Below are positions 11,291 to 55,283 of a DNA stretch of 64,000 nt, piece by piece. Source of the DNA: Eledone cirrhosa. Taxonomy: Eukaryota. Positions within the stretch are counted from its first letter, which is position 1; every line of letters starts with the position of its first letter. Position numbers and translations under genes: made by a program. The notes beneath the pieces were generated by a model. That model worked only from the letters and a program-made list of their open reading frames with translations, was not told the DNA's origin and did not search any database. Location of the stretch: assembly GCA_964016885.1 (NCBI GenBank), contig OZ024741.1, positions 89,590,001 through 89,654,000 of the forward strand. Direction: 5' to 3'.

Positions 11291-11650
11291 TCAATATAGT
11301 TTTTAAGATTGTCTTGCTACTGAAAAGCTTATCTGTATAATTGAAAATATTTTTTAAATTCTGTTAATATCATACAAACAATGAAAAGGTACAAGAAGGC
11401 AGTCTCCCCCACCCCCTCCATTATTTTGTGAGTTTCTGTTAGAAACAGTACAATGAATTAAATAAAATATGGAAAAAAACAAATTACTTGAAATTACCAT
11501 TAAGAAAAAAAGAGACGCATGAGAATATAGTGTAAGCCAGGGAGGAATTGGGACTTATTGCAGGATTATTACTGCACGTGAGATATATATATGAACGGAC
11601 GTAAATCGGTGATGATATATATATCTATCATCACCGATTTACGTCCGTTT

Positions 11651-13520
11651 ATCATCATCATCATCATCATCAACGTTTAACGTCCGTGTTCCACGCTTGC
11701 ATGGGTTTGGACGGGGGTAGTCCCACTTGAGGCAAGAGTGATTGTCTTGCTCGCATAGGACTGTCTGGCGGGTTTTCTACAGTTGGATGCCCTTCCTAAC
11801 ACCAACCACATTTACAGTGTGGGTCTGGGAGGTTTTTACCGTGTTGCCTACACGGCCACATTACAGCGTGGACTGTGTGTTTTTTTGTCGTGACACCTAC
11901 ACGATCTCATTTGTTTCGGCCTATGGCGCGGCACCAACATAACATTACATAGAACGGGGTGGTGTGGATGGGGTAGGGGTGGTGGTGGTGGGACGGGGTG
12001 TATTTTGTTAGAGATGCCTACTGGTTGGAGTAGGTTTTACTATATATTTAGGTAAGGCGGGTCTTCTCTGTTACTGAGTACCGCCAAAGGTCTTGGTCCA
12101 GTGACATTGTCTTGGAGAGGTGTAAGTGTGTGATGTCGGAGTTTATCAGCTCGTCCCAGGTTTTTCTAGGTCTGCCTATTCCGTGACTACCGTCTATCTT
12201 TATTGCCCTGCACTTTGTTATACAGCTATCGACTTTCATGCGCATCACGTGTCCATACCAACGTAGCCTTCTCTCGAATAAACATCTGATCCCTCTTATC
12301 TCTAATTTTTTCCTTAGTTCGTTTATGCTTTGCCGTTCACGTATATTACTGTTACACATCCAGCGGAGCATGCAAGCTTCGTTCCTCTCTAGTCTGCGTA
12401 TATCCTCTGCACACAATGTCCAGGTCTCACTGCCATGCAGCATTGCTGTTCGTATGCAGGCATCGTACAACCTGCCTTTCATTTTTAGGGAGAACCCTTT
12501 AGCAGCTAATAGTGGTATAAGCTCTCTGAACTTTTTCCAACCAGTTCTGACTCTAGCTACAGTACTTTCAGAGCACCCTCCCCCACTGCTGATTTTATCG
12601 CCCAGGTAACGGAAGCTGTCCACTATTTCTATAGAACCCTCTGCGCAATTGAAAGAGCTAGTATTTTGTGGGCACTTGCTGCTACTTATTGCACCAGAAC
12701 ACCGGCCACATGTAAAATCTATGTTCTTAGTTAGCTTACCTGTGATCCCACTACATCTTTTATGCACCCATACTTTGCATTTAGGACATAAAATGGAGTT
12801 TCTACCTACGCCTTTCCTACACACCGAGCACGACCATTTCCCAGAAGGGACCGCCGCCTTGTTTTCTTTCCTACAAACTAGAACTTTGGTCTTAGCCAGG
12901 TTAATTTTAAGTCCTTTTGACTCTAGGCCGTGCTTCCATGTTTGGAATTTCTTCTCTAGCTCGGCCATTGATTCCGCTATGAGTGTCAGGTCGTCTGCGT
13001 ATAGGAGTTCCCATGGGCAGCCTGTCTTGAACTCCTCTGTTATAGCCTGAAGGGCAATAATAAATAGTAGGGGGCTGAGAACAGAGCCCTGATGGACGCC
13101 AACTTTTACGCTAAACTCTTCACTATATTCGTTGTTAATTCTAACCTTGCTGACTGTTTCTTTATACATGGCTTGTATAGCCCTCACAAGCCATTCGTCA
13201 ACGCCTAGTTTTCTAAGAGCCCACCAGATAATGGAGCGGGGGACTCTGTCAAAGGCTTTCTCCAAGTCGACAAAAGCTAAGTAGAGGGGTTTACCTTTAG
13301 CTAGGTACTTCTCCTGTAGTTGTCGTACTATGAAAAGAGCGTCTGTGGTACTTTTGCCTGACACAAACCCGAACTGCATTTCTTCTAGGTCGATTCTCTC
13401 TCTGATTAGTTGCGCTATTACTTTTTCCGTGACCTTCATGACCTGGTCAATTAATTTAATGCCTCTATAGTTACTCCTATCTAGGGCGTCTCCTTTACCC
13501 TTATAACAGTTAACGATTAT
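11651..13520 (-). mobile_element. 5'-truncated RTE-clade LINE with internal PHD-like finger, 3' UTR and (GAT)n tail
   Basis: Open frame from ~13520 to stop at 12048; 3' end CCCATGCAAGCGTGGAACACGGACGTTAAACGTT(GAT)n on the minus strand. Confidence 0.92.
12048..13520 (-). CDS. RTE LINE ORF fragment: reverse transcriptase + PHD-like Cys/His finger + C-terminal domain
   Basis: NYRGIKL, QFGF, FVDLEKAFDRV, GVHQGSVLSP, LLYADD, CSVC..CPKC..HKRC..CGRC, FRYLG, RLRWYGHVMR, GRPRKTW. Confidence 0.88.
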   Translation of the reverse strand: MIVNCYKGKGDALDRSNYRGIKLIDQVMKVTEKVIAQLIRERIDLEEMQFGFVSGKSTTDALFIVRQLQEKYLAKGKPLYLAFVDLEKAFDRVPRSIIWWALRKLGVDEWLVRAIQAMYKETVSKVRINNEYSEEFSVKVGVHQGSVLSPLLFIIALQAITEEFKTGCPWELLYADDLTLIAESMAELEKKFQTWKHGLESKGLKINLAKTKVLVCRKENKAAVPSGKWSCSVCRKGVGRNSILCPKCKVWVHKRCSGITGKLTKNIDFTCGRCSGAISSSKCPQNTSSFNCAEGSIEIVDSFRYLGDKISSGGGCSESTVARVRTGWKKFRELIPLLAAKGFSLKMKGRLYDACIRTAMLHGSETWTLCAEDIRRLERNEACMLRWMCNSNIRERQSINELRKKLEIRGIRCLFERRLRWYGHVMRMKVDSCITKCRAIKIDGSHGIGRPRKTWDELINSDITHLHLSKTMSLDQDLWRYSVTEKTRLT

Positions 13521-13603
13521 ATATATATATATATCTCACGTGCAGTAATAATCCTGCAATAAGTCACAATTCCTACCTGGAGGAATATATATATATATAT
13601 ATA

Positions 13604-13985
13604 GTGGAGGCACATGTCTTAGTGGTTAGAGCATTGGCCTTGCAATCGAAAGGTGAGTTCAATTCTCAGACTGGGTGGTGTGTTGTTTCCTTGAGCAAGA
13701 CACTTTATTTCACATTGTTCCAGTTTACTCACCTGTAGAAATGAGATGATAGGGACTGGGGTCCCTATCATTACACTGCAAAGTGATCGTGGAGATGCTA
13801 CGGCAAAAAAGCACCCAGCCCACATGGTAAAGTGGACGTGTAGGCGCCACGGAAAAAAAAGCACCCAGCACTCACTGTAAATGAGGTTGGTGTTAGGAAG
13901 GGCATCGAGCTGTAGAAATCAAGCCACAATCAGTTCCCGTCCCACCCTTGCAAGCAGGGAAAAGCGGACGTAAAATGAAATGATG
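13604..13985 (+). mobile_element. CORE-type tRNA SINE with RTE-derived 3' tail
   Basis: tRNA head (TAGTGGTTAGAGC..GAGTTCAATTC), CORE-like CCTTGAGCAAGACACTT, tail GGAAGGGCATC..GCAAGCAGGGAAAAGCGGACGTAAAATGA matching the RTE 3' UTR at 11651-11905. Confidence 0.82.
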
Positions 13986-14099
13986 GAAATGATAGGATAA
14001 AGGATAAAGATCCCATAACTCCTTGTGGAGTTGTAGAGGCACCGTCAAATGGCGTGTCTAGGGAACATATAAACCCGGTGAAGACCAACTCTCTGCAAG

Positions 14100-14252
14100 T
14101 TTGAACACAGTCGATTTTTTCTATAGAGGAAGAATCAACCCCAGTACTGGACTGGTACTTTTTTTTTATTGACCTTGAATGAATGAAAGGCAAAGTTGAC
14201 CACAGCAGAATTTGAACTCAGAGCGCACAAATAGGTGGGAGAAATACCGTAA
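14100..14252 (-). mobile_element. Older Meta-domain-like SINE copy
   Basis: Reverse complement of the core (ctggtactt..tgaaaggcaaagttgacc..atttgaactcaga). Confidence 0.65.
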
Positions 14253-14499
14253 ATATATATATATATATGTTTCATTAAAATAACAGGAGGCCGGACTGGT
14301 GATGTTCCTTTAAAGTTTTATTGTTGTAAAAACATTATATATATTTCAATGGCCTGGTGACATCACCAGGTTCAGATTACATAATTATTTTATCAGTAAA
14401 GGAATTACGACATACACAGAAAATATAGAAAAAATATTTGGAATGGTTTGCAGCAACAATAATATCTAGGTCGCAGATAATTTCCAAATCAAATATTTT

Positions 14500-16024
14500 C
14501 CGCCAATTGGAAAGCAGCATGTAGATCTGATTCAAGGCATGTCCGCTTTCCACTCCATTGATAATCTTCTGGAGCTTGGAATCATTGCAAGGATTCTTAT
14601 GTTGCTGTGCTTGTTGACATCAGTAATGTCATTGATATAGATAATGAAGAGAAGTGGACCCAACACAGTGCCTTGTGGGATGCCACTACTGACTTTGGCT
14701 AGGCTTGATTGTACTCCTTCGATTGCATGTTGAACTCTGTCAGGAAACACTGGATCCATTGCAGTAACTTTCCAGAGACAATGTTAGATAGTTTTTTCAG
14801 TAGAATGTTGTGAGCAACCCCAACAAAGGCCTTGTTGAAATCAAGGTGTAAGACATCAGTGTTGGAGCCCTCTCCCAAAGCTCTTAAAATGTTGCAGGAG
14901 CTGCGTTAGGCAGTCCCTTCCATTACAGAACCCTATTTGGTTGGAGTTCAGCAGATTGTTGCTTTAAAAAAAGTGAGTTATTCGTGATCTCGCCACTTTC
15001 ACAAATACCTTCATGATATGAGAGGTGAGTGAGATTGAATGGTAATTCACTGCAAGGGACTTGTTTCCCTTTTTGAAAACTTGGACTGAAAATTTTCAGG
15101 TATATAGCTAGTGTCCAGTGAATTCCTCCACAAATAAGCTAGAAGAGATGCAAGTTGGTATCAACACACCTTCAGGGCACTAGCAGAGAACCTATCAGGG
15201 CCGACTGCTGAGTTATATTTAATATTGTTTATTGATGCTAAGACATCATGGGTGCCAAACGTTATGTCTGATATAGTGTTTGGAGATTAACATCACTGAT
15301 ACAGCCCAGATCAGCCACATCATGATTGCTGAAAACAGAGCAGTATTGTTTCTACAGCATCTCACCCATGGTTTTAGCATTGTCTTGGAGAGCCATTTTC
15401 ATCAATCTGGGGGCCAACAGTGGAGACAGTGATCTTATGTTTTTTTGTAAATGAAAAGAACACTTTGGGATTGAGTTTGATTTTCTCAATGACCGACTCC
15501 TCCTCAGCTGGTCTTTGGTTTTTGATGATGGTCTTCATGCATTGTTGGAGATTTTATTTTTTTTATTTGAGCAATAGCAGTCAAATGTGTGAGTTGCTGT
15601 TGGCATTATTTTAGTTAGTTGATTTTTTTTGTATGTTCTTTTTATTTTTCTGATAATAGTTTTTTGTTTTGGGGGATTCTGCGCTTAGTTTTGTTTCTCA
15701 GATCTTCATAGGGTATGTTTTGTACACATATTTGTAACAGTGCCTACAAACATCTGCCAGGATGTTTTGGTGTTGGTGGAGATGTGTGTGTGTGTGAAAG
15801 ACCAGTCAATATGTGATAGATTGTTAGTGATTACACCCCAGTTGGCATTATAAAGATCCATGTTATCAAATAGATGAGCTGGAAAGAGATCATTGGGTTT
15901 AATTTTCAGCTGGTGGAATCTTGGGTTACAGAGAATCCTGTCATGGTCTGAGAGAGGGCTTTTTCCACTATAAGATTATGTATATTATTAGTGTGGTTAC
16001 TAAACACTAGGTCCAATATTTCTT
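14500..16024 (-). mobile_element. Decayed CR1/L2-group LINE (endonuclease C-terminus to RT)
   Basis: Minus-strand peptides EILDLVFSNH, NYHSISLTSHIMKVF, LDFNKAF, SGIPQGTVLGPLLFIIYINDI; frameshifted. Confidence 0.8.
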
Positions 16025-16108
16025 TTGATATATATATATAAACACACATATACATATATATATATATATACATACACACACATATACATATATATATATA
16101 TATACATA

Positions 16109-16728
16109 TGGAATGAGGTAATAAAAACTGACTTTACACAATTATACCTCACCAAAACGATGACACAGGACTGCAACCTCTGGTATCATGCAGTACTACA
16201 GAAGACCCACCCTCCCATATGCTTCAGCTGAGGCATATATCTAATAGGCAACACCTCTCTCTACCATCTCCTCTCACATACACCTCATTTTGCTGTAACT
16301 ATCCCTCCCCTATTACCTACGTCCTCAATTTCCCCAAGCTTCTCTCCCCCACCCTCCCTAGTTCTCATCCCACACCATGAAGTACCTCCCACCTCTGTAG
16401 CTACAACAAAAGTGACCAACCCTCACTGTATAGTGGTCATGTATGTGTCAATACAAAAGCACCCAGTCCACACTGTAATTTGGTTGCATAGGGGTCACGA
16501 CAAACTGCCCAGTCCACACTGTAAAGTGATCTTGTTGGTGACACGACAAAAAGCATGCAGCACACTGTAAATGTTGTTGGCATTTGGAAGAGCATCCAGC
16601 TGTAGAAACTTAGCCAAAATCAGCCCCGGGTGAGCGAAACACAGTCCTCTGACCTTATTCTCTCTCAAAGGGTCAGCCCGTCCCACCCATGCTAGCCTGC
16701 AAAATGGATGTTAAACAATGATGATGAT
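16109..16728 (+). mobile_element. 3' fragment of an RTE LINE related to the 11651-13520 element
   Basis: WNEVIKTDFTQLYLTKTMTQDCNLWYHAVLQKT aligns to WDELINSDITHLHLSKTMSLDQDLWRYSVTEKT; 3' UTR with tandem motif units and (GAT)n tail. Confidence 0.75.
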
Positions 16729-16777
16729 ATACACATATATACATATACACACACACACATACACATATATATATATG

Positions 16778-16809
<32 letters not shown>

Positions 16810-16819
16810 CATATAATAC

Positions 16820-17173
16820 AAAAGACCTGACTTCCCACGGGCATAGGCCGAAGCTGAAGCATGTATACAGTATGCCCCACCTCACTTCACCCTCCCACTG
16901 TAAAGTGGTCGTGTACGTACCACAACAAAAAACACCCAGCCCACACTGTAAAGTGGTCGTGTAGGTGTCACGACAAAAACACCTAGTACTCACTGTGAAT
17001 GAGGTTGGTGTTAGGAAGTGCATCCAGCTGTAGAAATCAAGCCAAAATCAGTTCTGTATGAGCTAGACATGGTCACCTGACCTGGCACTGCCCACAACAG
17101 GACAACTCGTCTAACTCATGCTAGTGTGGAAAAATTGAAATAAAACAGTGATGATGATGATGATGATGATGAT
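16820..17173 (+). mobile_element. RTE 3' UTR fragment with tandem structured units and (GAT)n tail
   Basis: CATAGGCCGAA, two motif units, TTAGGAAGTGCATCCAGCTGTAGAAA, (GAT)n. Confidence 0.65.
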
Positions 17174-17195
17174 ATAAACATATACATATATATAT

Positions 17196-17503
17196 GGAGC
17201 GACATGGCTCAGTGGTTAGAGCATTGGCCTTGCAATCGAAAGGTTGTGAGTTCAATTCTCAGACCGGGTGATGTGTTGTTTCCTTGAGCAAGACACTTTA
17301 TTTCACATTGCTCCAGTTTACTCAGCTGTAGAAATGTAAAGTGGTCGTGGAGGTGCACGGCAAAAAAAGCACCCAGCCCTCACTGTAAATGAGGTTGGTG
17401 TTAGGAAGGGCATCCAGCTGTAGAAATCAAGCCAGAATCAATTCCCGTCCCACCCTTGCAAGCAGGGAAAAGCAGACGTAAAATGATGATGATGATGATG
17501 ATG
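17196..17503 (+). mobile_element. CORE-type tRNA SINE with RTE tail
   Basis: Highly similar to 13604-13985; ends in (GAT)n. Confidence 0.82.
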
Positions 17504-17659
17504 ATATATATATGTATATATATGTGTATATATATATATATATGTATATATATGTGTATATATATATATATATATATTAATTTGAACAACGTCAGTATTT
17601 CGTGTGTCATAATTCTCGATTATCATTGGTTCATAGGTTTCAAATGATGACACCAAACT

Positions 17660-18900: not shown

Positions 18901-18971
18901 GTATAGGCCAGTTGGCCGCGCCAAAACCGTCTCACAATGGGAGCATATTTTCAGCCATAGTTTTGGAGCCT

Positions 18972-20500
18972 GGTACTGGGTGGCACCAATCCGAGAAGCC
19001 TAACACATCTCACAGCATAACCACAATTTTGGGGCCCGGTACTGAGTGGCACCAATACAAGGAGCCTAACACATCTCACAGCATAACCACAATTTTGGGG
19101 CCCGGTACTGAGTGGCACCAATACAAGGAGCCTAACACATCTCACAGCATAACCACAATTTTGGGGCCCGGTACTGAGTGGCACCAATACAAGGAGCCTA
19201 ACACATCTCACAGCATAACCACAATTTTGGGGCCCGGTACTGGGTGGCACCAATACAAGGAGCCTAACACATCTCACAGCATAACCACAATTTTGGGGCC
19301 CGGTACTGAGTGGCACCAATACAAGGAGCCTAACACATCTCACAGCATAACCACAATTTTGGGGCCCGGTACTGAGTGGCACCAATACAAGGAGCCTAAC
19401 ACATCTCACAGCATAACCACAATTTTGGGGCCCGGTACTGGGTGGCACCAATACAAGGAGCCTAACACATCTCACAGCATAACCACAATTTTGGGGCCCG
19501 GTACTGGGTGGCACCAATACAAGGAGCCTAACACATCTCACAGCATAACCACAATTTTGGGGCCCGGTACTGAGTGGCACCAATACAAGGAGCCTAACAC
19601 ATCTCACAGCATAACCACAATTTTGGGGCCCGGTACTGAGTGGCACCAATACAAGGAGCCTAACACATCTCACAGCATAACCACAATTTTGGGGCCCGGT
19701 ACTGGGTGGCACCAATACAAGGAGCCTAACACATCTCACAGCATAACCACAATTTTGGGGCCTGGTACTGGGTGGCACCAATACAAGGAGCCTAACCACA
19801 ATTTTGGGGCCCGGTACTGGGTGGCACCAATACAAGGAGCCTAACACATCTCACAGCATAACCACAATTTTGGGGCCCGGTACTGGGTGGCACCAATACA
19901 AGGAGCCTAACACATCTCACAGCATAACCACAATTTTGGGGCCCGGTACTGGGTGGCACCAATACAAGGAGCCTAACACATCTCACAGCATAACCACAAT
20001 TTTGGGGCCAGGTACTGGGTGGCACCAATACAAGGAGCCTAACACATCTCACAGCATAACCACAATTTTGGGGCCCGGTACTGGGTGGCACCAATACAAG
20101 GAGCCTAACACATCTCACAGCATAACCACAATTTTGGGGCCCGGTACTGGGTGGCACCAATACAAGGAGCCTAACACATCTCACAGCATAACCACAATTT
20201 TGGGGCCCGGTACTGGGTGGCACCACTATGAGGAGCCTAACACATCTCACAGCATAACCACAATTTTGGGGCCCGGTACTGGGTGGCACCAATACAAGGA
20301 GCCTAACACATCTCACAGCATAACCACAATTTTGGGGCCTGGTACTGGGTGGCACCAATACAAGGAGCCTAACACATCTCACAGCATAACCACAATTTTG
20401 GGGCCCGGTACTGGGTGGCACCAATACAAGGAGCCTAACACATCTCACAGCATAACCACAATTTTGGGGCCCGGTACTGGGTGGCACCACTATGAGGAGC
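18972..20500. repeat. 66-bp tandem minisatellite, ~24 units
   Basis: Unit GGTACTGRGTGGCACCAATACAAGGAGCCTAACACATCTCACAGCATAACCACAATTTTGGGGCCC; starts 18972, 19038 ... 19764, a 17-bp deletion, then 19813 ... 20473. Confidence 0.97.
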
Positions 20501-24694: not shown

Positions 24695-24768
24695 TATATA
24701 ATATAATATATATATATAATATAATATATATATAATATAATATATATATATAATATAATATATATATA

Positions 24769-27251
24769 ATAAGAGGCGCGCTCTGTCACGCTACTTGACG
24801 GCAAGACCACAGGAGAGGAATACGTTGCATGAGGAGCTCAGGGATGTAAAATCACGTGTTAGGCGGAGTCTTTCTCAGATGAAGGATCAGTGGTGGAGTG
24901 AGAAGGCTGGTGAGATACAAACTGCGTCTGATTGCAATAACACAAAGCTGTTGTACAGTCTCTTGCGTGAGGTTTATGGACCGTCTTCTTCTCTGGTGAC
25001 ACCGATTCGCAGCAAGGATGGCAAAGAACTTCTTCGTGACTCACAGGGAATTCTACGAAGGTGGCGGGAGCACTTTGATGATCTTTTGAATCAGCCGTCT
25101 GTCGTCAGTGAAGATTTCCTCAATCTCATTCCGGAAAGTCCTGTGAAAGTAGCTCTCGCAGAGCCTCCGACACTTGTGGAGGTTGCAGTGGCTATTTCGA
25201 AGCTGAACAGTGGAAGATCTCCAGGTATGGATGGCATACATGCTGAGCTCCTACAATATGGTGGTGAGAGACTCCTGCAACATCTTCACTCTCTGTTTGG
25301 AAGGATATGGGCTAATGAATCCGTGCCTGAGGACTGGAGAGATGCAGTAATGGTGGTCTTGTACAAGGGAAAGGGTAACAGGAATGATTGTGGGAACTAC
25401 AGAGGTATATCATTGCTTTCTGTCGTGGGGAAAGTTTTATGTAGGGTGCTTCTGGACCGTCTGCTGACACACATTGCAGATTGTGTCCTTCCTGAAAGTC
25501 AATCTGGTTTTCGTGTTGGACGCGGCACTACTGATATGATCTTCTCAGCTAGACAGCTCCAGGAGAAGTGCATTGAACAGGGCTTGGATCTGTATCAGGT
25601 TTTTGTCGATCTGACAAAGGCTTTCGATACTGTCAACAGAGATGCATTATGGAAGGTTCTCCAGAAACTTGGTTGCCCTGATAAGTTCCTTGCTTTAGTT
25701 AGGTCTTTCCATGACGACATGAAGGCTTGGGTTAATGTCGGAGGTAACATGTCGGAGCCTATCTCAGTAAAAAATGGAGTGAAACAGGGGGATATTCCAG
25801 CACCGACCCTGTTTGCCATATACTTTGCAATGGTTTTCTGTGTTGCATTCAGGAATTGCGAGCATGGTGTTTACATCCGATATCGAACCTCAGGCAGCAT
25901 ATTTAACATCAGGCGCTTTGCTGCGAAGACAAAAGTATTTACATCAGTCATAAGAGACCTCTTGTATGCAGATGATTGCGATCTTGTAGCGCACACAGAG
26001 AGTGATATGCAGCACATTTTGAATGTATTTTCTGACGCTTGCACTGCCCTGGGTTTGACTGTCAGTCTCAAGAAAACCGTCGTCATGTACCAACCTGCAC
26101 CTGGTAGGCAGTACACTGAACCAAACATCTATGTGTATGGCAAACGACTTGGAGTGGTTGATCAGTTTGTCTACCTGGGAAGCACTGTCAATCGATACGG
26201 CAATCTTGACAGTGAAATCTCACTTAGGATTAGGAAAGCAAGTGATGCTTTCGGAAAGCTAGAAAGGCGACTCTGGGGTCGGCGAGACATATGCAGGAGG
26301 ACAAAGGTAAAGGTGTACAGGGCATGTGTACTCTCTTGTCTTCTTTATGCCTGCGAGACCTGGGTCACATATCGACGCCACCTTAAGCAATTGGAGCGTT
26401 TCCATCAGATGTGTCTCAGACGGATACATGGCGTTCGCTGGAGGGACCACATCAGTGATGTCGAGATTTTGGAAAGCTCTATGTGTGACAGTATAGAAGC
26501 TCTTGTGCTTAAGCAGCGACTCCGTTGGAGTGGTCACCTTGCCAGGATGAAGGATTCTAGAATACCAAAACAACTCTTCTATGGAGAGTTGGTTAAAGGA
26601 AAACGACCGCCACATAAACCAAAAAAGAGGTATAAGGATTCCTTGAAGGCCTCTCTGAAAGACGCTAACATCTCTGCTGATACATGGGAAAATATTGCTG
26701 CTGATCGTAATAAATGGAGAAAGACTGTATATGAGGGAAAAGTTGCCTTTGAGGCATCTCGAATCGCACACGAGAAAGTAAAGCGGGACGTGAGGAAGGG
26801 TATTGCTGTTGCACTTCCAGACGGCGAGGGTCCTCCTATGTTTCTGACATGCAGCGTCTGTGCGAGACTCTGCCTAAGCAAAGCTGGACTCGAAAGTCAT
26901 CTTCGCAGTCATAAAGTAAGACCAGTGGTTGACTACCAGGCTGCTGTTGGAGATGCTACTCATCATGCTTGCCAAACATGTGGTAGAGAATGTAAATCAG
27001 CAGGAGGACTCAAGCGACATGCAAAAGTACACGAACTCCAACCACAGCCGACTATTCCCAGTAAATGTTTTGGTTGCCGACTCTGTGCAAGACATTTTGG
27101 ATCATTGGCTGGGCTAAAAAGCCACATTCGATCGCAGCACTGTTAGTTGCTATCGTGTGTGTGTGTAGATATGCTTATGTGCGTGCGTGTGTGTGTATAT
27201 ATATATGAATATGTATATTATTATTGTTGTTGTCGTTATTATTATTATTGC

Positions 27252-28338: not shown

Positions 28339-28639
28339 GCGGGGACATAGAAATAATCGGGCTGGATGCCCGATCGCGCAGTTAAACCACTGGGAGTGAA
28401 GAACCCCTAGCCCATGTCAGGGTATTCTTCTAGGAGAAGGCATCTCAGGAAACTGGGTTAACTCCGATATAAAACCTGCGGCTCAGTAGTTACCGATGAT
28501 GTTGATCTTTTCTTCTTTTCGGGTTATAGCTACTGTCGCTCAGAGAGTGGGATTGGTTCAGTGCACAGTCTTTCCTCACTTTAAAAATATTCGTCACGCA
28601 CAGGCATTGCACGAGTGCATTAATAATTATTAATAGTGT

Positions 28640-28680
<41 letters not shown>

Positions 28681-31600
28681 TATTATTACTTTTTTTTTTT
28701 TTTTTTTTTTTTTTCTCCCTTTTTTTTTTTTTTTTTTTTTCCAATTCAATGATGTTCCAGAACAATGTAAACGAGATAATTGCCAATTTGGGTTCTGGAA
28801 CAAAAAGGATCATTGGCAATAAGGGCAGGGGCCCCAAGTTATCACAACCTGGGCCCGCCCGTCATCGTGCCATTGTAATAGAGCCAAACAGGGCATTTAG
28901 TCTTGGCTGCTGGAACGTACGGACGCTGCTTGACGGGGATTCTTTGGAGCGTCCTGAACGAAGGACCGCTCTTGTTGCGAAGGAGCTTCGACGTTACGAT
29001 CTTGACATCGTGGCTTTGTCTGAGACGAGGTTAGCTGGAGATGGTCATCTTACGGAATTTTGTGGAGAATATACATTCTTCTGGAAAGGAAGAGATGAAG
29101 GAACCAGAAGAGAGGCTGGGGTAGGATTTGCTGTTAAGACTGTACTGGTGAATAAATTGGAAGAATTCCCAGTGGGGATTAGTGAGCGTCTTATGTCCAT
29201 GAGAGTTCCGCTGGACAGGGGAAGATATGCTACCCTGGTGAGTGTGTATGCTCCAACTATGAATTCTGTCGATGAGGAAAAACTGTCCTTTTACCATGCC
29301 TTGAAAGGTGTTTTAAGAAATATCCCTCAGGCAGACAAAGTCATCGTGCTTGGTGACTTTAATGCTAGAGTGGGTAGGGATTTTAACACATGGAATGTAA
29401 TCGGAAGGCATGGGGTGGGAAAGTGTAACAGCAATGGTATGCTCTTGCTGCAGATGTGTGAGGAGCTGGATCTGTGTGTTACCAACACCATGTTCCAACA
29501 AAAGAACAAATTCAAGACCACATGGATGCATCCTGCATCTAAGGAATGGCATCTTTTGGACTACGTCCTAGTCAGGATGCGTGACAGACAGGATGTGCGG
29601 TGTGTTCGTGTTCTTCGTGGAGCTGAGTGCTGGACGGACCACCGCCTGGTACGCGCAAAAGTGAATCTAATCACCAAACGTAAAATCCGGGCTCCTGGTG
29701 TTGCCCTGCCCAAAAGATTGAATGCTGCTCGTCTTAAGGATAAAAATGTGAAGAGGACATTGGAAGAAGAGATGCAGGCTGCAGATCTTGGTGAGGATTG
29801 GCCGACCCTTAAAAAGTCGGTTTATGATGTAGGCAGACGTGTTCTGGGATTGGTGCAGAGAAAACATCAGGACTGGTTTAATGAGAAAGATGTGCATATA
29901 GATGACTTGTTGGCTGATAAGAGGCGCGCTCTGTCACGCTACTTGACGGCAAGACCACAGGAGAGGAATACGTTGCATGAGGAGCTCAGGGATGTAAAAT
30001 CACGTGTTAGGCGGAGTCTTTCTCAGATGAAGGATCAGTGGTGGAGTGAGAAGGCTGGTGAGATACAAACTGCGTCTGATTGCAATAACACAAAGCTGTT
30101 GTACAGTCTCTTGCGTGAGGTTTATGGACCGTCTTCTTCTCTGGTGACACCGATTCGCAGCAAGGATGGCAAAGAACTTCTTCGTGACTCACAGGGAATT
30201 CTACGAAGGTGGCGGGAGCACTTTGATGATCTTTTGAATCAGCCGTCTGTCGTCAGTGAAGATTTCCTCAATCTCATTCCGGAAAGTCCTGTGAAAGTAG
30301 CTCTCGCAGAGCCTCCGACACTTGTGGAGGTTGCAGTGGCTATTTCGAAGCTGAACAGTGGAAGATCTCCAGGTATGGATGGCATACATGCTGAGCTCCT
30401 ACAATATGGTGGTGAGAGACTCCTGCAACATCTTCACTCTCTGTTTGGAAGGATATGCGCTAATGAATCCGTGCCTGAGGACTGGAGAGATGCAGTAATG
30501 GTGGTCTTGTACAAGGGAAAGGGTAACAGGAATGATTGTGGGAACTACAGAGGTATATCATTGCTTTCTGTCGTGGGGAAAGTTTTATGTAGGGTGCTTC
30601 TGGACCGTCTGCTGACACACATTGCAGATTGTGTCCTTCCTGAAAGTCAATCTGGTTTTCGTGTTGGACGCGGCACTACTGATATGATCTTCTCAGCTAG
30701 ACAGCTCCAGGAGAAGTGCATTGAACAGGGCTTGGATCTGTATCAGGTTTTTGTCGATCTGACAAAGGCTTTCGATACTGTCAACAGAGATGCATTATGG
30801 AAGGTTCTCCAGAAACTTGGTTGCCCTGATAAGTTCCTTGCTTTGGTTAGGTCTTTCCATGACGACATGAAGGCTTGGGTTAATGTCGGAGGTAACATGT
30901 CGGAGCCTATCTCAGTAAAAAATGGAGTGAAACGGGGGGATATTCCAGCACCGACCCTGTTTGCCATATACTTTGCAATGGTTTTCTGTATTGCATTCAG
31001 GAATTGCGAGCATGGTGTTTACATCCGATATCGAACCTCAGGCAGCATATTTAACATCAGGCGCTTTGCTGCGAAGACAAAAGTATTTACATCAGTCATA
31101 AGAGACCTCTTGTATGCAGATGATTGCGATCTTGTAGCGCACACAGAGAGTGATATGCAGCACATTTTGAATGTATTTTCTGACGCTTGCACTGCCCTGG
31201 GTTTGACTGTCAGTCTCAAGAAAACCGTCGTCATGTACCAACCTGCACCTGGTAGGCAGTACACTGAACCAAACATCTATGTGTATGGCAAACGACTTGG
31301 AGTGGTTGATCAGTTTGTCTACCTGGGAAGCACTGTCAATCGATACGGCAACCTTGACGGTGAAATCTCACTTAGGATTAGGAAAGCAAGTGATGCTTTC
31401 GGAAAGCTAGAAAGGCGACTCTGGGGTCGGCGAGACATATGCAGGAGGACAAAGGTAAAGGTGTACAGGGCATGTGTACTCTCTTGTCTTCTTTATGCCT
31501 GCGAGACCTGGGTCACATATCGACGCCACCTTAAGCAATTGGAGCGTTTCCATCAGATGTGTCTCAGACGGATACATGGCGTTCGCTGGAGGGACCACAT

Positions 31601-32407
31601 CAGTGATGTCGAGATTTTGGAAAGCTCTATGTGTGACAGTATAGAAGCTCTTGTGCTTAAGCAGCGACTCCGTTGGAGTGGTCACCTTGCCAGGATGAAG
31701 GATTCTAGAATACCAAAACAACTCTTCTATGGAGAGTTGGTTAAAGGAAAACGACCGCCACATAAACCAAAAAAGAGGTATAAGGATTCCTTGAAGGCCT
31801 CTCTGAGAGACGCTAACATCTCTGCTGATACATGGGAAAATATTGCTGCTGATCGTAATAAATGGAGAAAGACTGTATATGAGGGAAAAGTTGCCTTTGA
31901 GGCATCTCGAATCGCACACGAGAAAGTAAAGCGGGACGTGAGGAAGGGTATTGCTGTTGCACTTCCAGACGGCGAGGGTCCTCCTATGTTTCTGGCATGC
32001 GGCGTCTGTGCGAGACTCTGCCTAAGCAAAGCTGGACTCGAAAGTCATCTTCGCAGTCATAAAGTAAGACCAGTGGTTGACTACCAGGCTGCTGTTGGAG
32101 ATGCTACTCATCATGCTTGCCAAACATGTGGTAGAGAATGTAAATCAGCAGGAGGACTCAAGCGACATGCAAAAGTACACGAACTCCAACCACAGCCGAC
32201 TATTCCCAGTAAATGTTTTGGTTGCCGACTCTGTGCAAGACATTTTGGATCATTGGCTGGGCTAAAAAGCCACATTCGATCGCAGCACTGTTAGTTGCTA
32301 TCGTGTGTTTGTGTGTGTGTGTAGATATGCTTATGTGCGTGCGTGTGTGTGTATATATATATGAATATGTATATTATTATTGTTGTTGTCGTTATTATTA
32401 TTATTGC

Positions 32408-47780: not shown

Positions 47781-48298
47781 TCACTTCTGTTACTTCTAAT
47801 ATAACTCACAATATGTTATGCCGACAGTCATCATCATATGTCAATGATGATGAGATTATATTATGTATGTATGGACCCATAACTTCTGATGGAATTGTAG
47901 GGATGTTGTCATGACATATGGTATGTTTTGGTCATTTTAAACCTGATGGAGCCCATCCCTCTCCCGGTCTGAACACAGCCGATTTTTCCAAAGAAAGAGA
48001 TACAGAGGAAGAATCGTTTACTGTTCTGGACTGGTACTTTTTATGTTGACTTCGAAAAGATGAAAGGTAAAGTTAACTTTGGTAGGTTTTGAATTCAGAG
48101 TGTAGAAAACCAGAAAGAAAACTGCAGCGCATTCTGTCTGATGTTCTAACAATTCTGCCAATTCACCACCTAGGATATAGTATATCTGAAAACAAAAAGC
48201 TGAGATGGTCGTTACAGCAATAATTTTAATCGAAATTGACATGGTCACAAACAACAACATTAACAATAAATAAATGTAGGAGAAGGATAAATACTAAC

Positions 48299-48740
48299 CG
48301 GCAATACTTTGGATGAGCCCAGATAAAGTGAAAATACTTTTGCTACACAAAGCTCGGGTACAGAGACTGATGACAGAGGTGGCAGTGGTAAATATCATTG
48401 CCAGTACTCCACACACAAAGAAGAATAAAGTAGCTTTCCATGTGTTGGGGAAATTTTCATTGGACATATGGAACTTTGTGACATAGGTATCACAGCTGTC
48501 TCTGTGGTAGATCCTGTTGTATTTGTGTAGACGATAACAACGGTTGAAGATACCAACCGTTGGGTGAAATGTTTCTTGGTTCTTTGAGGCATTGTCTTTA
48601 CCACTCAAGCCAATCTGTTGTGGTTTGCCTGTTAACCAGTGTGGTGAACAGATAGACACCACTAGCATGAGTGTAGTTACAATGGTAAACAGAGTCCATA
48701 TGAGCGATCGACAGGTTACTATAACTTGGCACATCGTCAT
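48299..48740 (-). CDS. LHFPL2: LHFPL2-like, first coding exon
   Basis: MCQVIVTCRSLIWTLFTIV..SPHWLTGK matches the LHFPL2 N-terminus (MCHVIVTCRSMLWTLLSIV); GIFNRC, WKA, KSIF..GLIQSIAG; phase-1 donor G|GTTAGT at 48298; exon extends 5' to acceptor tttttcttgcAG at 48949; joined CDS 442+114+143 = 699 nt in frame. Confidence 0.93.
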
Positions 48741-49002
48741 TGGTGGTTTTTTTCTTTCTTCTTTTAGTCAAGAAGATACACTTATATTTTGTTATTTAAT
48801 TTTTTAAACTAAAGAAGAGGCCGTTCGATAATAAAATCTTTGTAAGCTTGCAGTGGTCCTACTTGATTTCTGGAAGTTGTTATCAAGTAATCATTCGAAT
48901 CTGGAGTGTAGTATCAGCAGAGCAGCCAGGAAGCAGGATGAGGAGAAACTGCAAGAAAAAGAGAAAATAAATATGATAAATGTTTCATTATTACTTTACC
49001 TA

Positions 49003-52768: not shown

Positions 52769-54590
52769 CTAATGTATTGGTACGCGATGGGGCCCACCCA
52801 CAGCCCCAGCGGACAGAATGGAGAAGGCGTTTCCCCGGATGACGGCAAGGGAGACGCGCTGGAAAAGCCACTCCAACTCGCGGGGCTCACACCTGCGGCT
52901 GGCCAGCTCAGCGCCTATGGTGGTGAGTAAGGAGGTAGCCCTGGGGCCTAGGACACCAGAAGTCTCCACTGCCAGGGGAACGACCGCAAACCTGTCGGAG
53001 AGCGACCGGTATTTGAGGAGTTTGGCCCCCTCAGTCCGAGGTGCAGCAGAACCTGGGTCAGTCGCAGACTGCACCAGGTTGCGGCTGCAGAAAGTGTCGG
53101 TGCAAGTGGCATCCCAGACGAGGGGTTTGCCACCGCGGAACGGGAAGATGGTCATGCCATCTGGCCTTTTGCCGTCCCCTCGACCCAGCCCCATCGGTTC
53201 GAGCTGGGAAGGGAAGCCTGCAGCGTCCAAACCATGCTTAATGACCTCGTTGAGGGCAGCATGGCGTGGATGCGGCCGGCACTGTGGCGACAGGAAAGCG
53301 GGTGGAGGCCGAAAGAGTTCACGGTGGAACCGCAGCGACATTGGTGTGGCTGGCAGATCCGGAGGCCGAGCCTCAGGGAAACGCCGATTCGCAGGCTATG
53401 GTTGTCTAGCTGCGTGCCAGTGGAAAAGCAGGGCAGGGCATGGAGCCAGGTACCACTGTGGGGTTTGGAGGCCGCACGAAAACAAGCATGCGGTGCTGGT
53501 CGAGCTGGCGCGTGAGCCTGTTTGAGGCCAGGCTGCACTGGATGGCATCCCAAGTGCGTTGGGGGGACTTGACGTCAACAGGGGGAGAAGGAGGAGGGAC
53601 GTCTACTGGGCTAAGTCCCAGCCGGTCCCACGTCACATAGGCGGCCTCACGTTCTCTGAACACAGAGGGTTCTGTTGTGTTTTGAAGAACCTTGCTGACG
53701 AGGACGCGGCACGAGGTTACCGACGAAAGATACGCCGGCAAAGCTAGTGAGATCGGGGATCGGAGGCCTAGGCCGCCATACCTGACCGGTAAAGTGGCCT
53801 GTTGCCACCCTATGTCGTCAAACTTGACGTTGCATATCTCCTCGGCTGCTGCTCGGATACAAGTATCGAGGTCAGCGAGGAGAGGTATCTGGGTGTAGCA
53901 TGGAGCGCTGCGGAGTGTATAGAGGAGCTTCGGCATGACGAAGCAGTTCCTCAGCAGAAAGAGAGCTGGGTGGCCGTCAATCAAGCCCAGTCGGCAGCTG
54001 TTGAAGCCTGGACCTGATGGTGGAGCGGATGGCCGGCGGGTGGATCGGTGACCCGAGGATGAGAACATCCTCTTTGGGGGGTCACCTGAACCTGGCGGAG
54101 AATGGACCGCACGCCCAAGACGGAGGCTGCAAAGCTCGCAGTATCGAGGCTGACGTTCACCACCTCCGACTTGGCCGAGTTGACCTGGAGGCCGATTCCC
54201 GCCAGGGCAGGAATCACCGATTGAAGGTCTTGGCAGACCGTCCATACGGGCCCGCCCAACGTAGCATCATCCAGATACCAAACGTTGAGAGGGGCCGTGA
54301 TACTCCGGGCGATGTGGTCAATACAAGTGCGAACAGGAGGGGTCCCAAAGGGTCTCCCTGTTGGACCCCAGTAGCCGAGGGTATGACCGTATCAGCAGCT
54401 AGGAGCATGCTCGGGGTTCCATATGATAGGTAGGCCAGCGGGTAGGCAGCGGGGGCTCGGCTGAGGCAGGCCTCGAGCAGATGATCCCGGCGTAAAGAGT
54501 TAAAGGCATTCCTCATGTCAAGCTTGACAATGAGGTGCCTGGAGTCCCTGGATGCCGGTACCGATGGGCAGCTAGAGAAGAACTGCCTGA
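52769..54590 (-). mobile_element. CRE-clade non-LTR retrotransposon, 5'-truncated and frameshifted (RT + zinc knuckle + restriction-like endonuclease)
   Basis: KLDMRNAFNS, GVQQGDPLGPLLFAL, LPVRYGGLG, SGTWLHALP, CQPHQCRCG..HPLSC, RHAALNE, KRPDG..VWDATC, PLAVETSG, GNA; GC-rich island. Confidence 0.88.
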
Positions 54591-55283
54591 ACCAGTACCA
54601 ACTAACACCATCTCATCTCTCGCTACATTCAAAAATAATCTATCGCTACACCTCTAGTTCTACACCACAAAGCTGTTTATTTTAAAGTGTTCATAATCAT
54701 ATGGGCATGCTTGTCAAGTGCAGATGTCGTCCCTACACAAACCGACTGAAACCACGCCTAGTTCTAAGATACAAAACTATTTATTTTAAAGTGTCTATAA
54801 ATTTATGTAAGAACCTTTGATAAGTTATATTCCAAACACCAGCTTAATAATGAAAAAATTAGTTATGTTACCCAATCTCTTCAAATTTTTGATTATTTTG
54901 AAAATCATAGATAATGTCTTTCATTAGAAATATGGTAACCGAATGATTAATAACTTTTATTAGGTTGAGTGGAAATTCTGTGAAACTTTCCCAGACATGT
55001 CACTCATGTAGGTACTCTTAAACGCTAACCTAACATACTGTGTTTTTGTACACACTTATTGACCCCTCCTCCACTTCATACTCATATTTACTGACCTCGT
55101 TAACCCTTCAACTTAACACTTCTATTACCGTATTTCTAATAGAATACAGTGCCTATTTTGAAAATTTGGAGGAATTTAATAAAATAACTAACCTTTAAGC
55201 TGCTGTTTTAAATATTACTTAACCACAATTTTTAAAACAAGTATTTGTAAACGAACAGTTATCATTATCTATAATGTATCATT

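What the first reader, a model, noticed from the sequence alone, without database searches (positions are those of the whole stretch)
16956..17005. Tandem pseudoknot-hairpin RNA motif with pistol-ribozyme-like topology in RTE 3' UTRs and SINE tails
Seen in the best copy: stem GTCGTG (16956-61) / CACGAC (16969-74), whose loop TAGGTGT is exactly complementary to ACACCTA (16979-85) after an AAAA linker. This is followed by GTA, a hairpin CTCA-ctgtgaa-TGAG and GT. The ~48-nt unit occurs as 1-3 tandem copies at 11800-11905 (-), 13788-13885, 16420-16580, 16895-17005 and 17345-17395, always just upstream of TTAGGAAGGGCATCC. Stem pairing is retained despite sequence change (CCGTGT/ACACGG vs GTCGTG/CACGAC; CCAC/GTGG vs CTCA/TGAG), though pseudoknot pairing is imperfect in several copies. 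Established: pistol ribozymes have P1 with a pseudoknotted loop, an AAA linker, G-Y-G after the pseudoknot, P3, then a G|U cleavage site, and are known mainly from bacteria/phage; non-LTR elements are known to carry HDV-like, hammerhead and twister ribozymes. Difference: the P2 5' strand is missing here and the third base of the triad varies. Inference: an undescribed minimal self-cleaving RNA, or a nuclease-blocking/RT-recognition element shared by a LINE-SINE pair.
Basis: partly seen in the sequence, partly recalled or inferred. Interest (0 to 1): 0.75.

Follow-up and report, generated by a model that had tools for sequence, protein, structure and literature searches.

The report
Retrotransposon-tail tandem pseudoknot, not pistol
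A 49-base sequence repeated in the tail of a very abundant animal retrotransposon and its SINE lacks the catalytic parts of a pistol ribozyme; it likely folds into two hairpins, possibly joined by a small pseudoknot, and likely serves as a non-cutting handle on the element's RNA, in the slot where related retrotransposons carry a twister ribozyme.

Summary
The repeat is real; the pistol reading is not supported. The ~49-nt unit lies in the 3' UTR of several RTE LINE subfamilies and a tRNA-headed SINE, roughly 2x10^5 arrays genome-wide (extrapolated). The best copy's perfect 7-bp pseudoknot is a private variant (19 of 986 units); the family core is 4 bp (533 of 986). P2, the A32/G33 loop and G42 are absent (G-Y-G in 3 of 986), Rfam finds no ribozyme, and insertions do not start at the G|T, whereas 20 of 20 twister-bearing RTE copies in the same genome start at their cut site. 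Across 17 subfamily consensuses the three helices together keep pairing more than a tree simulation expects (p 0.001-0.008); the pseudoknot helix alone does not (p 0.07-0.55), despite one fixed double change. The downstream motif is an RTE 5'-UTR piece, and in related RTEs a twister sits directly before it. Descent of the unit from twister is suggestive, not significant. Best reading: a non-catalytic structured cis-element in a shared LINE/SINE tail; its function is inferred, not tested.

The parts
16957..17005 (+). Terminal unit of a 5'-truncated RTE copy; its 7-bp pseudoknot is a private variant
16908..16956 (+). Upstream (internal) unit of the same RTE copy, decayed
16813..17173 (+). 5'-truncated RTE LINE copy: last codons of the ORF, 3' UTR with two units, motif 17011-25, (TGA)n tail 17149-73
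   Evidence: relatives at 89-92% continue upstream into the same LINE
11651..13535 (-). 5'-truncated copy of the young RTE LINE (RT + PHD finger, open frame 12048-13535), 3' UTR, (ATC)n tail; top 40 genome matches 99% identical
11856..11904 (-). Internal unit of the young RTE; keeps a 4-bp loop pairing (GTGT/ACAC)
11803..11856 (-). Terminal unit of the young RTE; S1 and P3 intact, pseudoknot helix cut to 2 bp (GGCA against CTCC)
11785..11799 (-). RTE 5'-UTR-derived motif TTAGGAAGGGCATCC (also 13893-907, 16583-97, 17011-25, 17401-15)
13605..13985 (+). SINE: tRNA-like head, CORE-like stretch at 13689 (label recalled), two units 13786-13885, motif, shortened RTE tail
16160..16726 (+). Older 5'-truncated RTE copy with three decayed units (16436-16575) and motif 16583-97
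17196..17505 (+). SINE: tRNA-like head 17205-62, one unit 17344-95, motif 17401-15, RTE tail lacking about 60 nt of its middle, (ATG)n

Best explanation
The unit is a repeated part of the 3' tail shared by an RTE LINE lineage and its SINE, which likely folds in the element's RNA into two hairpins, possibly joined by a small H-type pseudoknot, and likely acts as a non-cutting structural handle for loading the RTE protein or stabilising the RNA. Shown: its place (between ORF stop and priming tail, directly before an RTE 5'-UTR motif), its abundance, its duplication into arrays, the lack of pistol and twister catalytic parts, read-through by inserted copies, and retained pairing across subfamilies for the three helices together. 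Predicted: S1 of 6-7 bp, a 1-nt L1, S2 of 4-5 bp, an A-rich L3 of 6-7 nt, then P3, which in terminal units extends by CCAG/TTGG. Inferred: selection acts on the few master elements at RNA level; the module came in with a bipartite RTE 5'+3' piece; extra copies give redundancy, so one unit may lose S2. The role in protein loading or stability is inference only.
For: Pairing retained on 17 subfamily consensuses: 233 of 272 cells canonical, 8 two-sided changes against 3.1-3.5 simulated; p 0.001-0.008 and 0.003-0.011 over four roots and one leave-out. On 16 real representatives S1+S2 score 0.216 against 0.022-0.120 for slid partners. Pair 7-13 takes T-A, G-C and C-G; P3 takes CCAC/GTGG, CTCA/TGAG, CCAT/ATGG; S2 GGTG/CACC becomes GGAG/CTCC in the terminal unit of three subfamilies. 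L3 is 6-7 nt in 861 of 986 units. In 99 of 120 multi-unit elements whose terminal S2 is under 4 bp an upstream unit keeps 4 or more (dominated by one family). The SINE kept unit and motif but lost the tail's middle. 48 of 69 and 71 of 91 unselected copies run through the whole terminal unit.
Against: S2 alone is not significant (p 0.07-0.55); it is broken in the terminal unit of the youngest LINE and of subfamily A2, and T-T and A-A intermediates exist. 171 of 1278 column pairs show a two-sided change, so no single pair stands out. G-U against A-C gives no sense-strand bias (5 against 7 distinct cases). Folding energy is not unusual. Units duplicate and may convert, so the tree null is approximate, and I anchored the P3 alignment by hand. 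Another non-autonomous family has the motif and the RTE tail without the unit (18 loci), so it is not needed for mobilisation. No experiment bears on function.
Confidence: 0.5

Rival explanations
1. Functionless minisatellite: the unit duplicates by slippage or template switching, and its hairpins are perfected by quasi-palindrome repair in master copies, not by selection on RNA.
For: Arrays of up to 46 units; 112-nt duplications too; no strand bias in wobble pairs; ordinary folding energy; S2 lost in an active family; a family without the unit also spread. Template-switch repair of imperfect inverted repeats is recalled knowledge.
Against: Two-sided changes fall in three separate helices, one of them not nested with S1; every sampled LINE subfamily of this lineage and the SINE keep at least one unit; L3 length is narrow.
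Confidence: 0.27
2. Origin hypothesis, compatible with the best explanation: the unit is a rearranged, catalytically dead relic of the twister ribozyme that related RTEs carry in this slot. Its 3' half would be twister P1/L1/P2 without the core, its 5' half the P3-P4-L4 strand.
For: Twister-P1 lies directly before the motif in 8 foreign loci (24-64 bits), four of which run into an RTE endonuclease start. The young LINE's endonuclease is closest to one of them (38% against 25-28%). Short identities at both ends, e.g. CTCA...GTAAATGAGG with L385.
Against: Local alignment is at shuffle level once the shared last 9 nt are cut (mean z -0.02 to 0.72). With a long deletion allowed, only 3 near-identical consensuses of 12 reach p about 0.01; the 5' half gives p 0.13-0.40. 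No exact twister-plus-motif pattern in this genome. Six of the 8 foreign loci were found by a pattern demanding the adjacency.
Confidence: 0.35
3. Exonuclease-blocking element: tandem pseudoknots stall 5'-3' decay and leave stable 3' fragments that hold the priming tail.
For: Tandem compact pseudoknots in a 3' UTR resemble viral xrRNA arrangements (recalled); some copies begin just upstream of the first unit.
Against: No clear pile-up of 5' ends at the first unit; the sample is small (20 and 12 copies) and several apparent ends are internal duplications. No Rfam match. S2 is short and often broken.
Confidence: 0.12
4. Minimal pistol-like or otherwise new self-cleaving ribozyme cutting at the G|T after P3.
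For: H-type topology with an A-rich linker and a G after the pseudoknot strand; it occupies a slot where relatives have a ribozyme.
Against: No room for P2 or the A32/G33 loop (L3 3-10 nt); G-Y-G in 3 of 986; no ribozyme match at E up to 10; at most 2 of 69 and 2 of 91 copies begin within 1 nt of the site and ends are scattered, while 20 of 20 twister copies begin at their site; 2-3 cutting units between ORF and tail would cripple a LINE that is plainly recently active.
Confidence: 0.05

Closest known systems
Pistol ribozyme (Rfam RF02679)
   Same: A hairpin whose loop can pair downstream, an A-rich linker, a G after that strand, a further hairpin followed by GT.
   Different: [quoted passage not shown] G33 N7 loss costs over 1000-fold (PMC7027511, passages). 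No model match.
Twister-P1 at RTE 5' ends (Perere-3 T-variants, PMC8501958; RF03160)
   Same: Same retrotransposon clade; same slot directly before the RTE 5'-UTR motif; short sequence echoes.
   Different: No P4/L4 UCCCAAGC, no GAGGG strand, no model match; lies in the 3' UTR; insertions do not start at it.
Bipartite RTE-derived SINE tails / Ceph-SINEs (PMC5786205)
   Same: tRNA head + CORE-like stretch + RTE 5'-UTR piece + RTE 3' end; the paper notes that SINEs take internal 5'-UTR pieces and suggests the 5' ribozyme as the reason.
   Different: Here the autonomous LINE itself carries the 5'-UTR piece in its 3' UTR, preceded by tandem structured units. The motif was not found in that paper's supplement text, so it may be a different 5'-UTR domain from the Ceph one.
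Classical H-type pseudoknots with A-rich L3; LINE/SINE 3' recognition stem-loops such as UnaL2 (recalled)
   Same: Helix and loop lengths fit the H-type geometry; shared LINE-SINE location.
   Different: Tandem, about 130-180 nt upstream of the priming end, and dispensable in another non-autonomous family.

Membership tests
Pistol ribozyme | P1 whose loop forms a pseudoknot | tested here: inconclusive
   4-bp core in 533 of 986 units, 7 bp in 19; helix alone p 0.07-0.55
Pistol ribozyme | [quoted passage not shown] | tested here: not met
   Only 3-10 nt (6-7 in 861 of 986), nearly all A, between S1 and the pseudoknot strand
Pistol ribozyme | A32/G33 metal-binding loop | tested here: not met
   No position for it; role from PMC7027511
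Pistol ribozyme | G40-Y41-G42 after the pseudoknot | tested here: not met
   G-Y-G in 3 of 986; third base G in 6
Pistol ribozyme | Match to the Rfam model | tested here: not met
   None at E up to 10 in 11500-17600, 16880-17070 or an old array; none in the genome search, which scored only 62 candidates
Pistol ribozyme | Self-cleavage at G|U in Mg2+ | not testable with these tools
   Indirect only: no pile-up of insertion ends at the site
Twister ribozyme | P4 with the conserved L4, UAA at the cut site and GAGGG strand | tested here: not met
   Absent from all 18 consensuses; no match, while true twisters in this genome do match
Twister ribozyme | Descent from twister (sequence homology) | tested here: inconclusive
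Bipartite RTE-derived tail | RTE 5'-UTR piece joined to an RTE 3' end with microsatellite tail | tested here: met
   Motif precedes an endonuclease start in 4 foreign loci; same 3' end in LINE and SINE
H-type pseudoknot | Two crossing helices formed at once, short L1, longer L3 | tested here: inconclusive
   Geometry fits and both helices have two-sided changes; simultaneous formation cannot be computed with nested folding, which picks S1 in most and S2 in the oldest families
xrRNA | Blocks Xrn1 | not testable with these tools
   Truncation profile inconclusive

The most novel reading that the evidence does not exclude
An RTE lineage moved its 5' ribozyme module into the 3' UTR, where the twister was rebuilt into a new, non-cutting tandem pseudoknot that the LINE and its SINE use to load the reverse transcriptase or to block decay: a ribozyme turned into a retrotransposition element, now in some 10^5 places of an animal genome.
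Probability: 0.17. Interest if true: 0.75.

Novelty: new variant of a known kind. Interest (0 to 1): 0.42.

Why it matters
How RTE LINEs, which spread widely and drive many SINEs, recognise their RNA is poorly known. A compact, very abundant unit with natural compensatory variants and natural loss variants offers ready-made constructs to test it. If the twister origin held, it would be a clear case of a ribozyme recycled as a structural element. The negative result also matters: this is not a eukaryotic pistol ribozyme.

Tried and rejected
Pistol model on window, best copy, old array and genome: nothing. A P2 made of CACC with the downstream GGTG: uses the same bases as S2 and fails in the CTCC families. 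Column-pair scan: no single pair above background. 'Junction base always paired to S1 or S2' holds in 18 of 18 consensuses (p 0.03) but I noticed it after the fact and give it little weight. Twister homology. True 5' end of the young LINE not reached; no twister or motif in the roughly 700 nt of 5' region seen. Truncation hazard: too few copies. Viral contigs: 2 chance matches of the motif. Sequencing runs: no RNA holder listed; laid contigs cannot show RNA ends and add no independent species evidence. Earlier findings: none. The Wilson 2019 pistol paper was not held. R-scape was not available; my parsimony simulation stands in for it.

Full report
Observation. All five clusters exist. The downstream motif occurs 11 times against 0.10 expected. 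The genome is 3.0 Gb. I take the animal to be an octopus from my recollection of these repeats; no call names it.

Context. 11651-13535 (-) is a 5'-truncated LINE with RT and PHD domains; its top 40 genome matches are 99% identical, from 1842 candidates. 16160-16726 and 16813-17173 are truncated copies of older subfamilies, and 13605-13985 and 17196-17505 are SINEs with a tRNA-like head. An HMM found 246 units in 103 evenly spaced 10-kb stretches and none in the reversed decoy. They form 70 arrays of 1-46 units, 56 with the motif within 50 nt. That extrapolates to about 2x10^5 arrays.

Pistol test. Of 1164 distinct HMM hits in random and targeted loci, 986 could be parsed and 178 were dropped. 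The 7-bp pseudoknot is complete in 19, the 4-bp core in 533. Pistol needs P1, P2, P3 and a pseudoknot strand in the P2-P3 junction (PMC4604425, passages), and G33 is worth over 1000-fold (PMC7027511, passages). Here only 3-10 nt, 6-7 in 861 units, separate S1 from the pseudoknot strand, so P2 and the A32/G33 loop have no place; G-Y-G occurs in 3 of 986. Rfam gives no ribozyme at E up to 10; the genome-wide pistol search was empty but scored only 62 candidates.

Cleavage, indirectly. The same genome holds twister-P1 matches (25, best 49.8 bits, under the 67.2 cut-off) at the 5' ends of two other RTE families. All 20 fetched copies begin within about 2 nt of the twister cut site, as reported for Perere-3 (PMC8501958, passages and part 1 of section 18); they were selected by the model. 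For the unit, 48 of 69 unselected copies and 71 of 91 flank copies extend through the whole terminal unit, and at most 2 in each set begin within 1 nt of the G|T, among ends scattered from -28 to +2.

Is there a structure? Clustering gave 18 subfamily consensuses; one, from 3 arrays, was left out of the tree. S1 pair 7-13 is T-A, G-C or C-G, but unpaired in 7 of 17; pair 2-18 goes T-A, T-G, C-G. P3 varies as CCAC/GTGG, CTCA/TGAG and CCAT/ATGG. S2 is GGTG/CACC in internal units and GGAG/CTCC in the terminal unit of three related subfamilies, one inherited event, with T-T intermediates in 4 of 21 old terminal votes. A simulation that keeps each column's number of changes but redraws branch and base gives p 0.001-0.008 for canonical cells and 0.003-0.011 for two-sided changes over all helices; P3 alone 0.008-0.05, S1 alone 0.001-0.25, S2 alone 0.07-0.55. 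The tool count on 16 real copies agrees: 85% paired and score 0.216 against at most 0.120 when slid. Against this: S2 is reduced to 2 bp in the youngest LINE's terminal unit and interrupted in A2, no single pair beats background, wobble pairs show no strand bias, folding energies are ordinary, and the tree ignores conversion between units. So the hairpins have moderate support and the pseudoknot is plausible but unproven. Its geometry, 6-7 bp, 1 nt, 4-5 bp, 6-7 A-rich nt, is that of a generic H-type pseudoknot (recalled).

The slot. Of 120 metagenome stretches with the motif, most belong to one invertebrate-like repeat without the unit, none showed the unit by eye, and 2 have a twister directly upstream. 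A pattern demanding twister plus motif found 6 more stretches, apparently animal DNA in prokaryote assemblies, three nearly identical. All 8 match twister-P1 at 24-64 bits and 4 run on into an RTE endonuclease start. The young LINE's endonuclease is 38% identical to L385 and 25-28% to other RTEs of this genome. So the motif is an RTE 5'-UTR piece, the tail is a bipartite 5'+3' module of the kind described in PMC5786205 (parts 1-4 of 5 read), and the unit stands where relatives have a twister. Whether it descends from one is open: shuffle tests are mostly at background and no twister-plus-motif pattern occurs in this genome.

Mechanism. Most likely the unit is a non-cutting RNA structure kept by selection on master elements, helping the RTE protein load on its RNA or protecting it; this step is inference. 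The SINE kept unit and motif while losing the middle of the tail, but another non-autonomous family has motif and tail without the unit, so it is an accessory. A neutral minisatellite with hairpins tidied by template switching remains the main rival.

Print. Searches showed no description of this unit. I also saw passages of PMC6765202, PMC9115989 and PMC4758252. Repbase, the original octopus and Ceph-SINE papers and alignment figures in supplements were not visible (searched supplement text only), so the repeat families themselves may be catalogued.

Verdict. Real, structured with moderate support, not pistol, probably not catalytic. New variant of a known kind; interest 0.42.

Noticed in passing
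L101-L120 (e.g. G000:C4:96354674-96354728): Canonical-looking twister-P1 ribozymes at the 5' ends of two RTE LINE families of this genome; copies start at the cut site, often beside (TA)n.
   Followed up: partly
L463-L482, L052:5300-5440: A non-autonomous family (3021 candidates) of about 170 nt: conserved 5' part with two possible hairpins, then the same motif and RTE tail, no tRNA head and no unit. No Rfam match in 12 of 20 loci scanned; its 5' part reminds me of HDV-like ribozyme ends (recalled), untested.
   Followed up: partly
L322-L351 and L438-L462: Two subfamilies carry another conserved module before the unit: GAGAGG/CCTCTC enclosing a variable hairpin with compensatory changes; repeat lengths of about 89 and 144 nt.
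   Followed up: no
window 13746-13773; L059:7840-7870: The SINE body holds an 11-bp inverted repeat (GATAGGGAC...GTCCCTATC) just before the unit.
   Followed up: no
L142-L261: The same motif begins a very common short repeat in invertebrate host-associated metagenomes, preceded by a GACGC/GCGTC hairpin.
   Followed up: no
window 24759-27146 and 28530-32294: Two near-identical copies of another RTE-type LINE, one with an open frame of about 1190 aa (endonuclease, RT, C-terminal zinc-finger-like motifs).
   Followed up: partly
window 18961-20500: 66-nt minisatellite of about 23 copies inside another motif-bearing element (motif at 18840-54, minus strand).
   Followed up: no
G000:C10:39160734-39163588; L053, L311, L048: The unit seeds long minisatellites (about 55 units at C10; 46, 23 and 21 in random stretches).
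   Followed up: partly
window 48294-48767 (-): A frame reading like an exon of a multi-pass membrane protein, so the repeats may lie in a host intron.
   Followed up: no
window 52769-54612: Fragments of a further reverse-transcriptase element in several frames.
   Followed up: no
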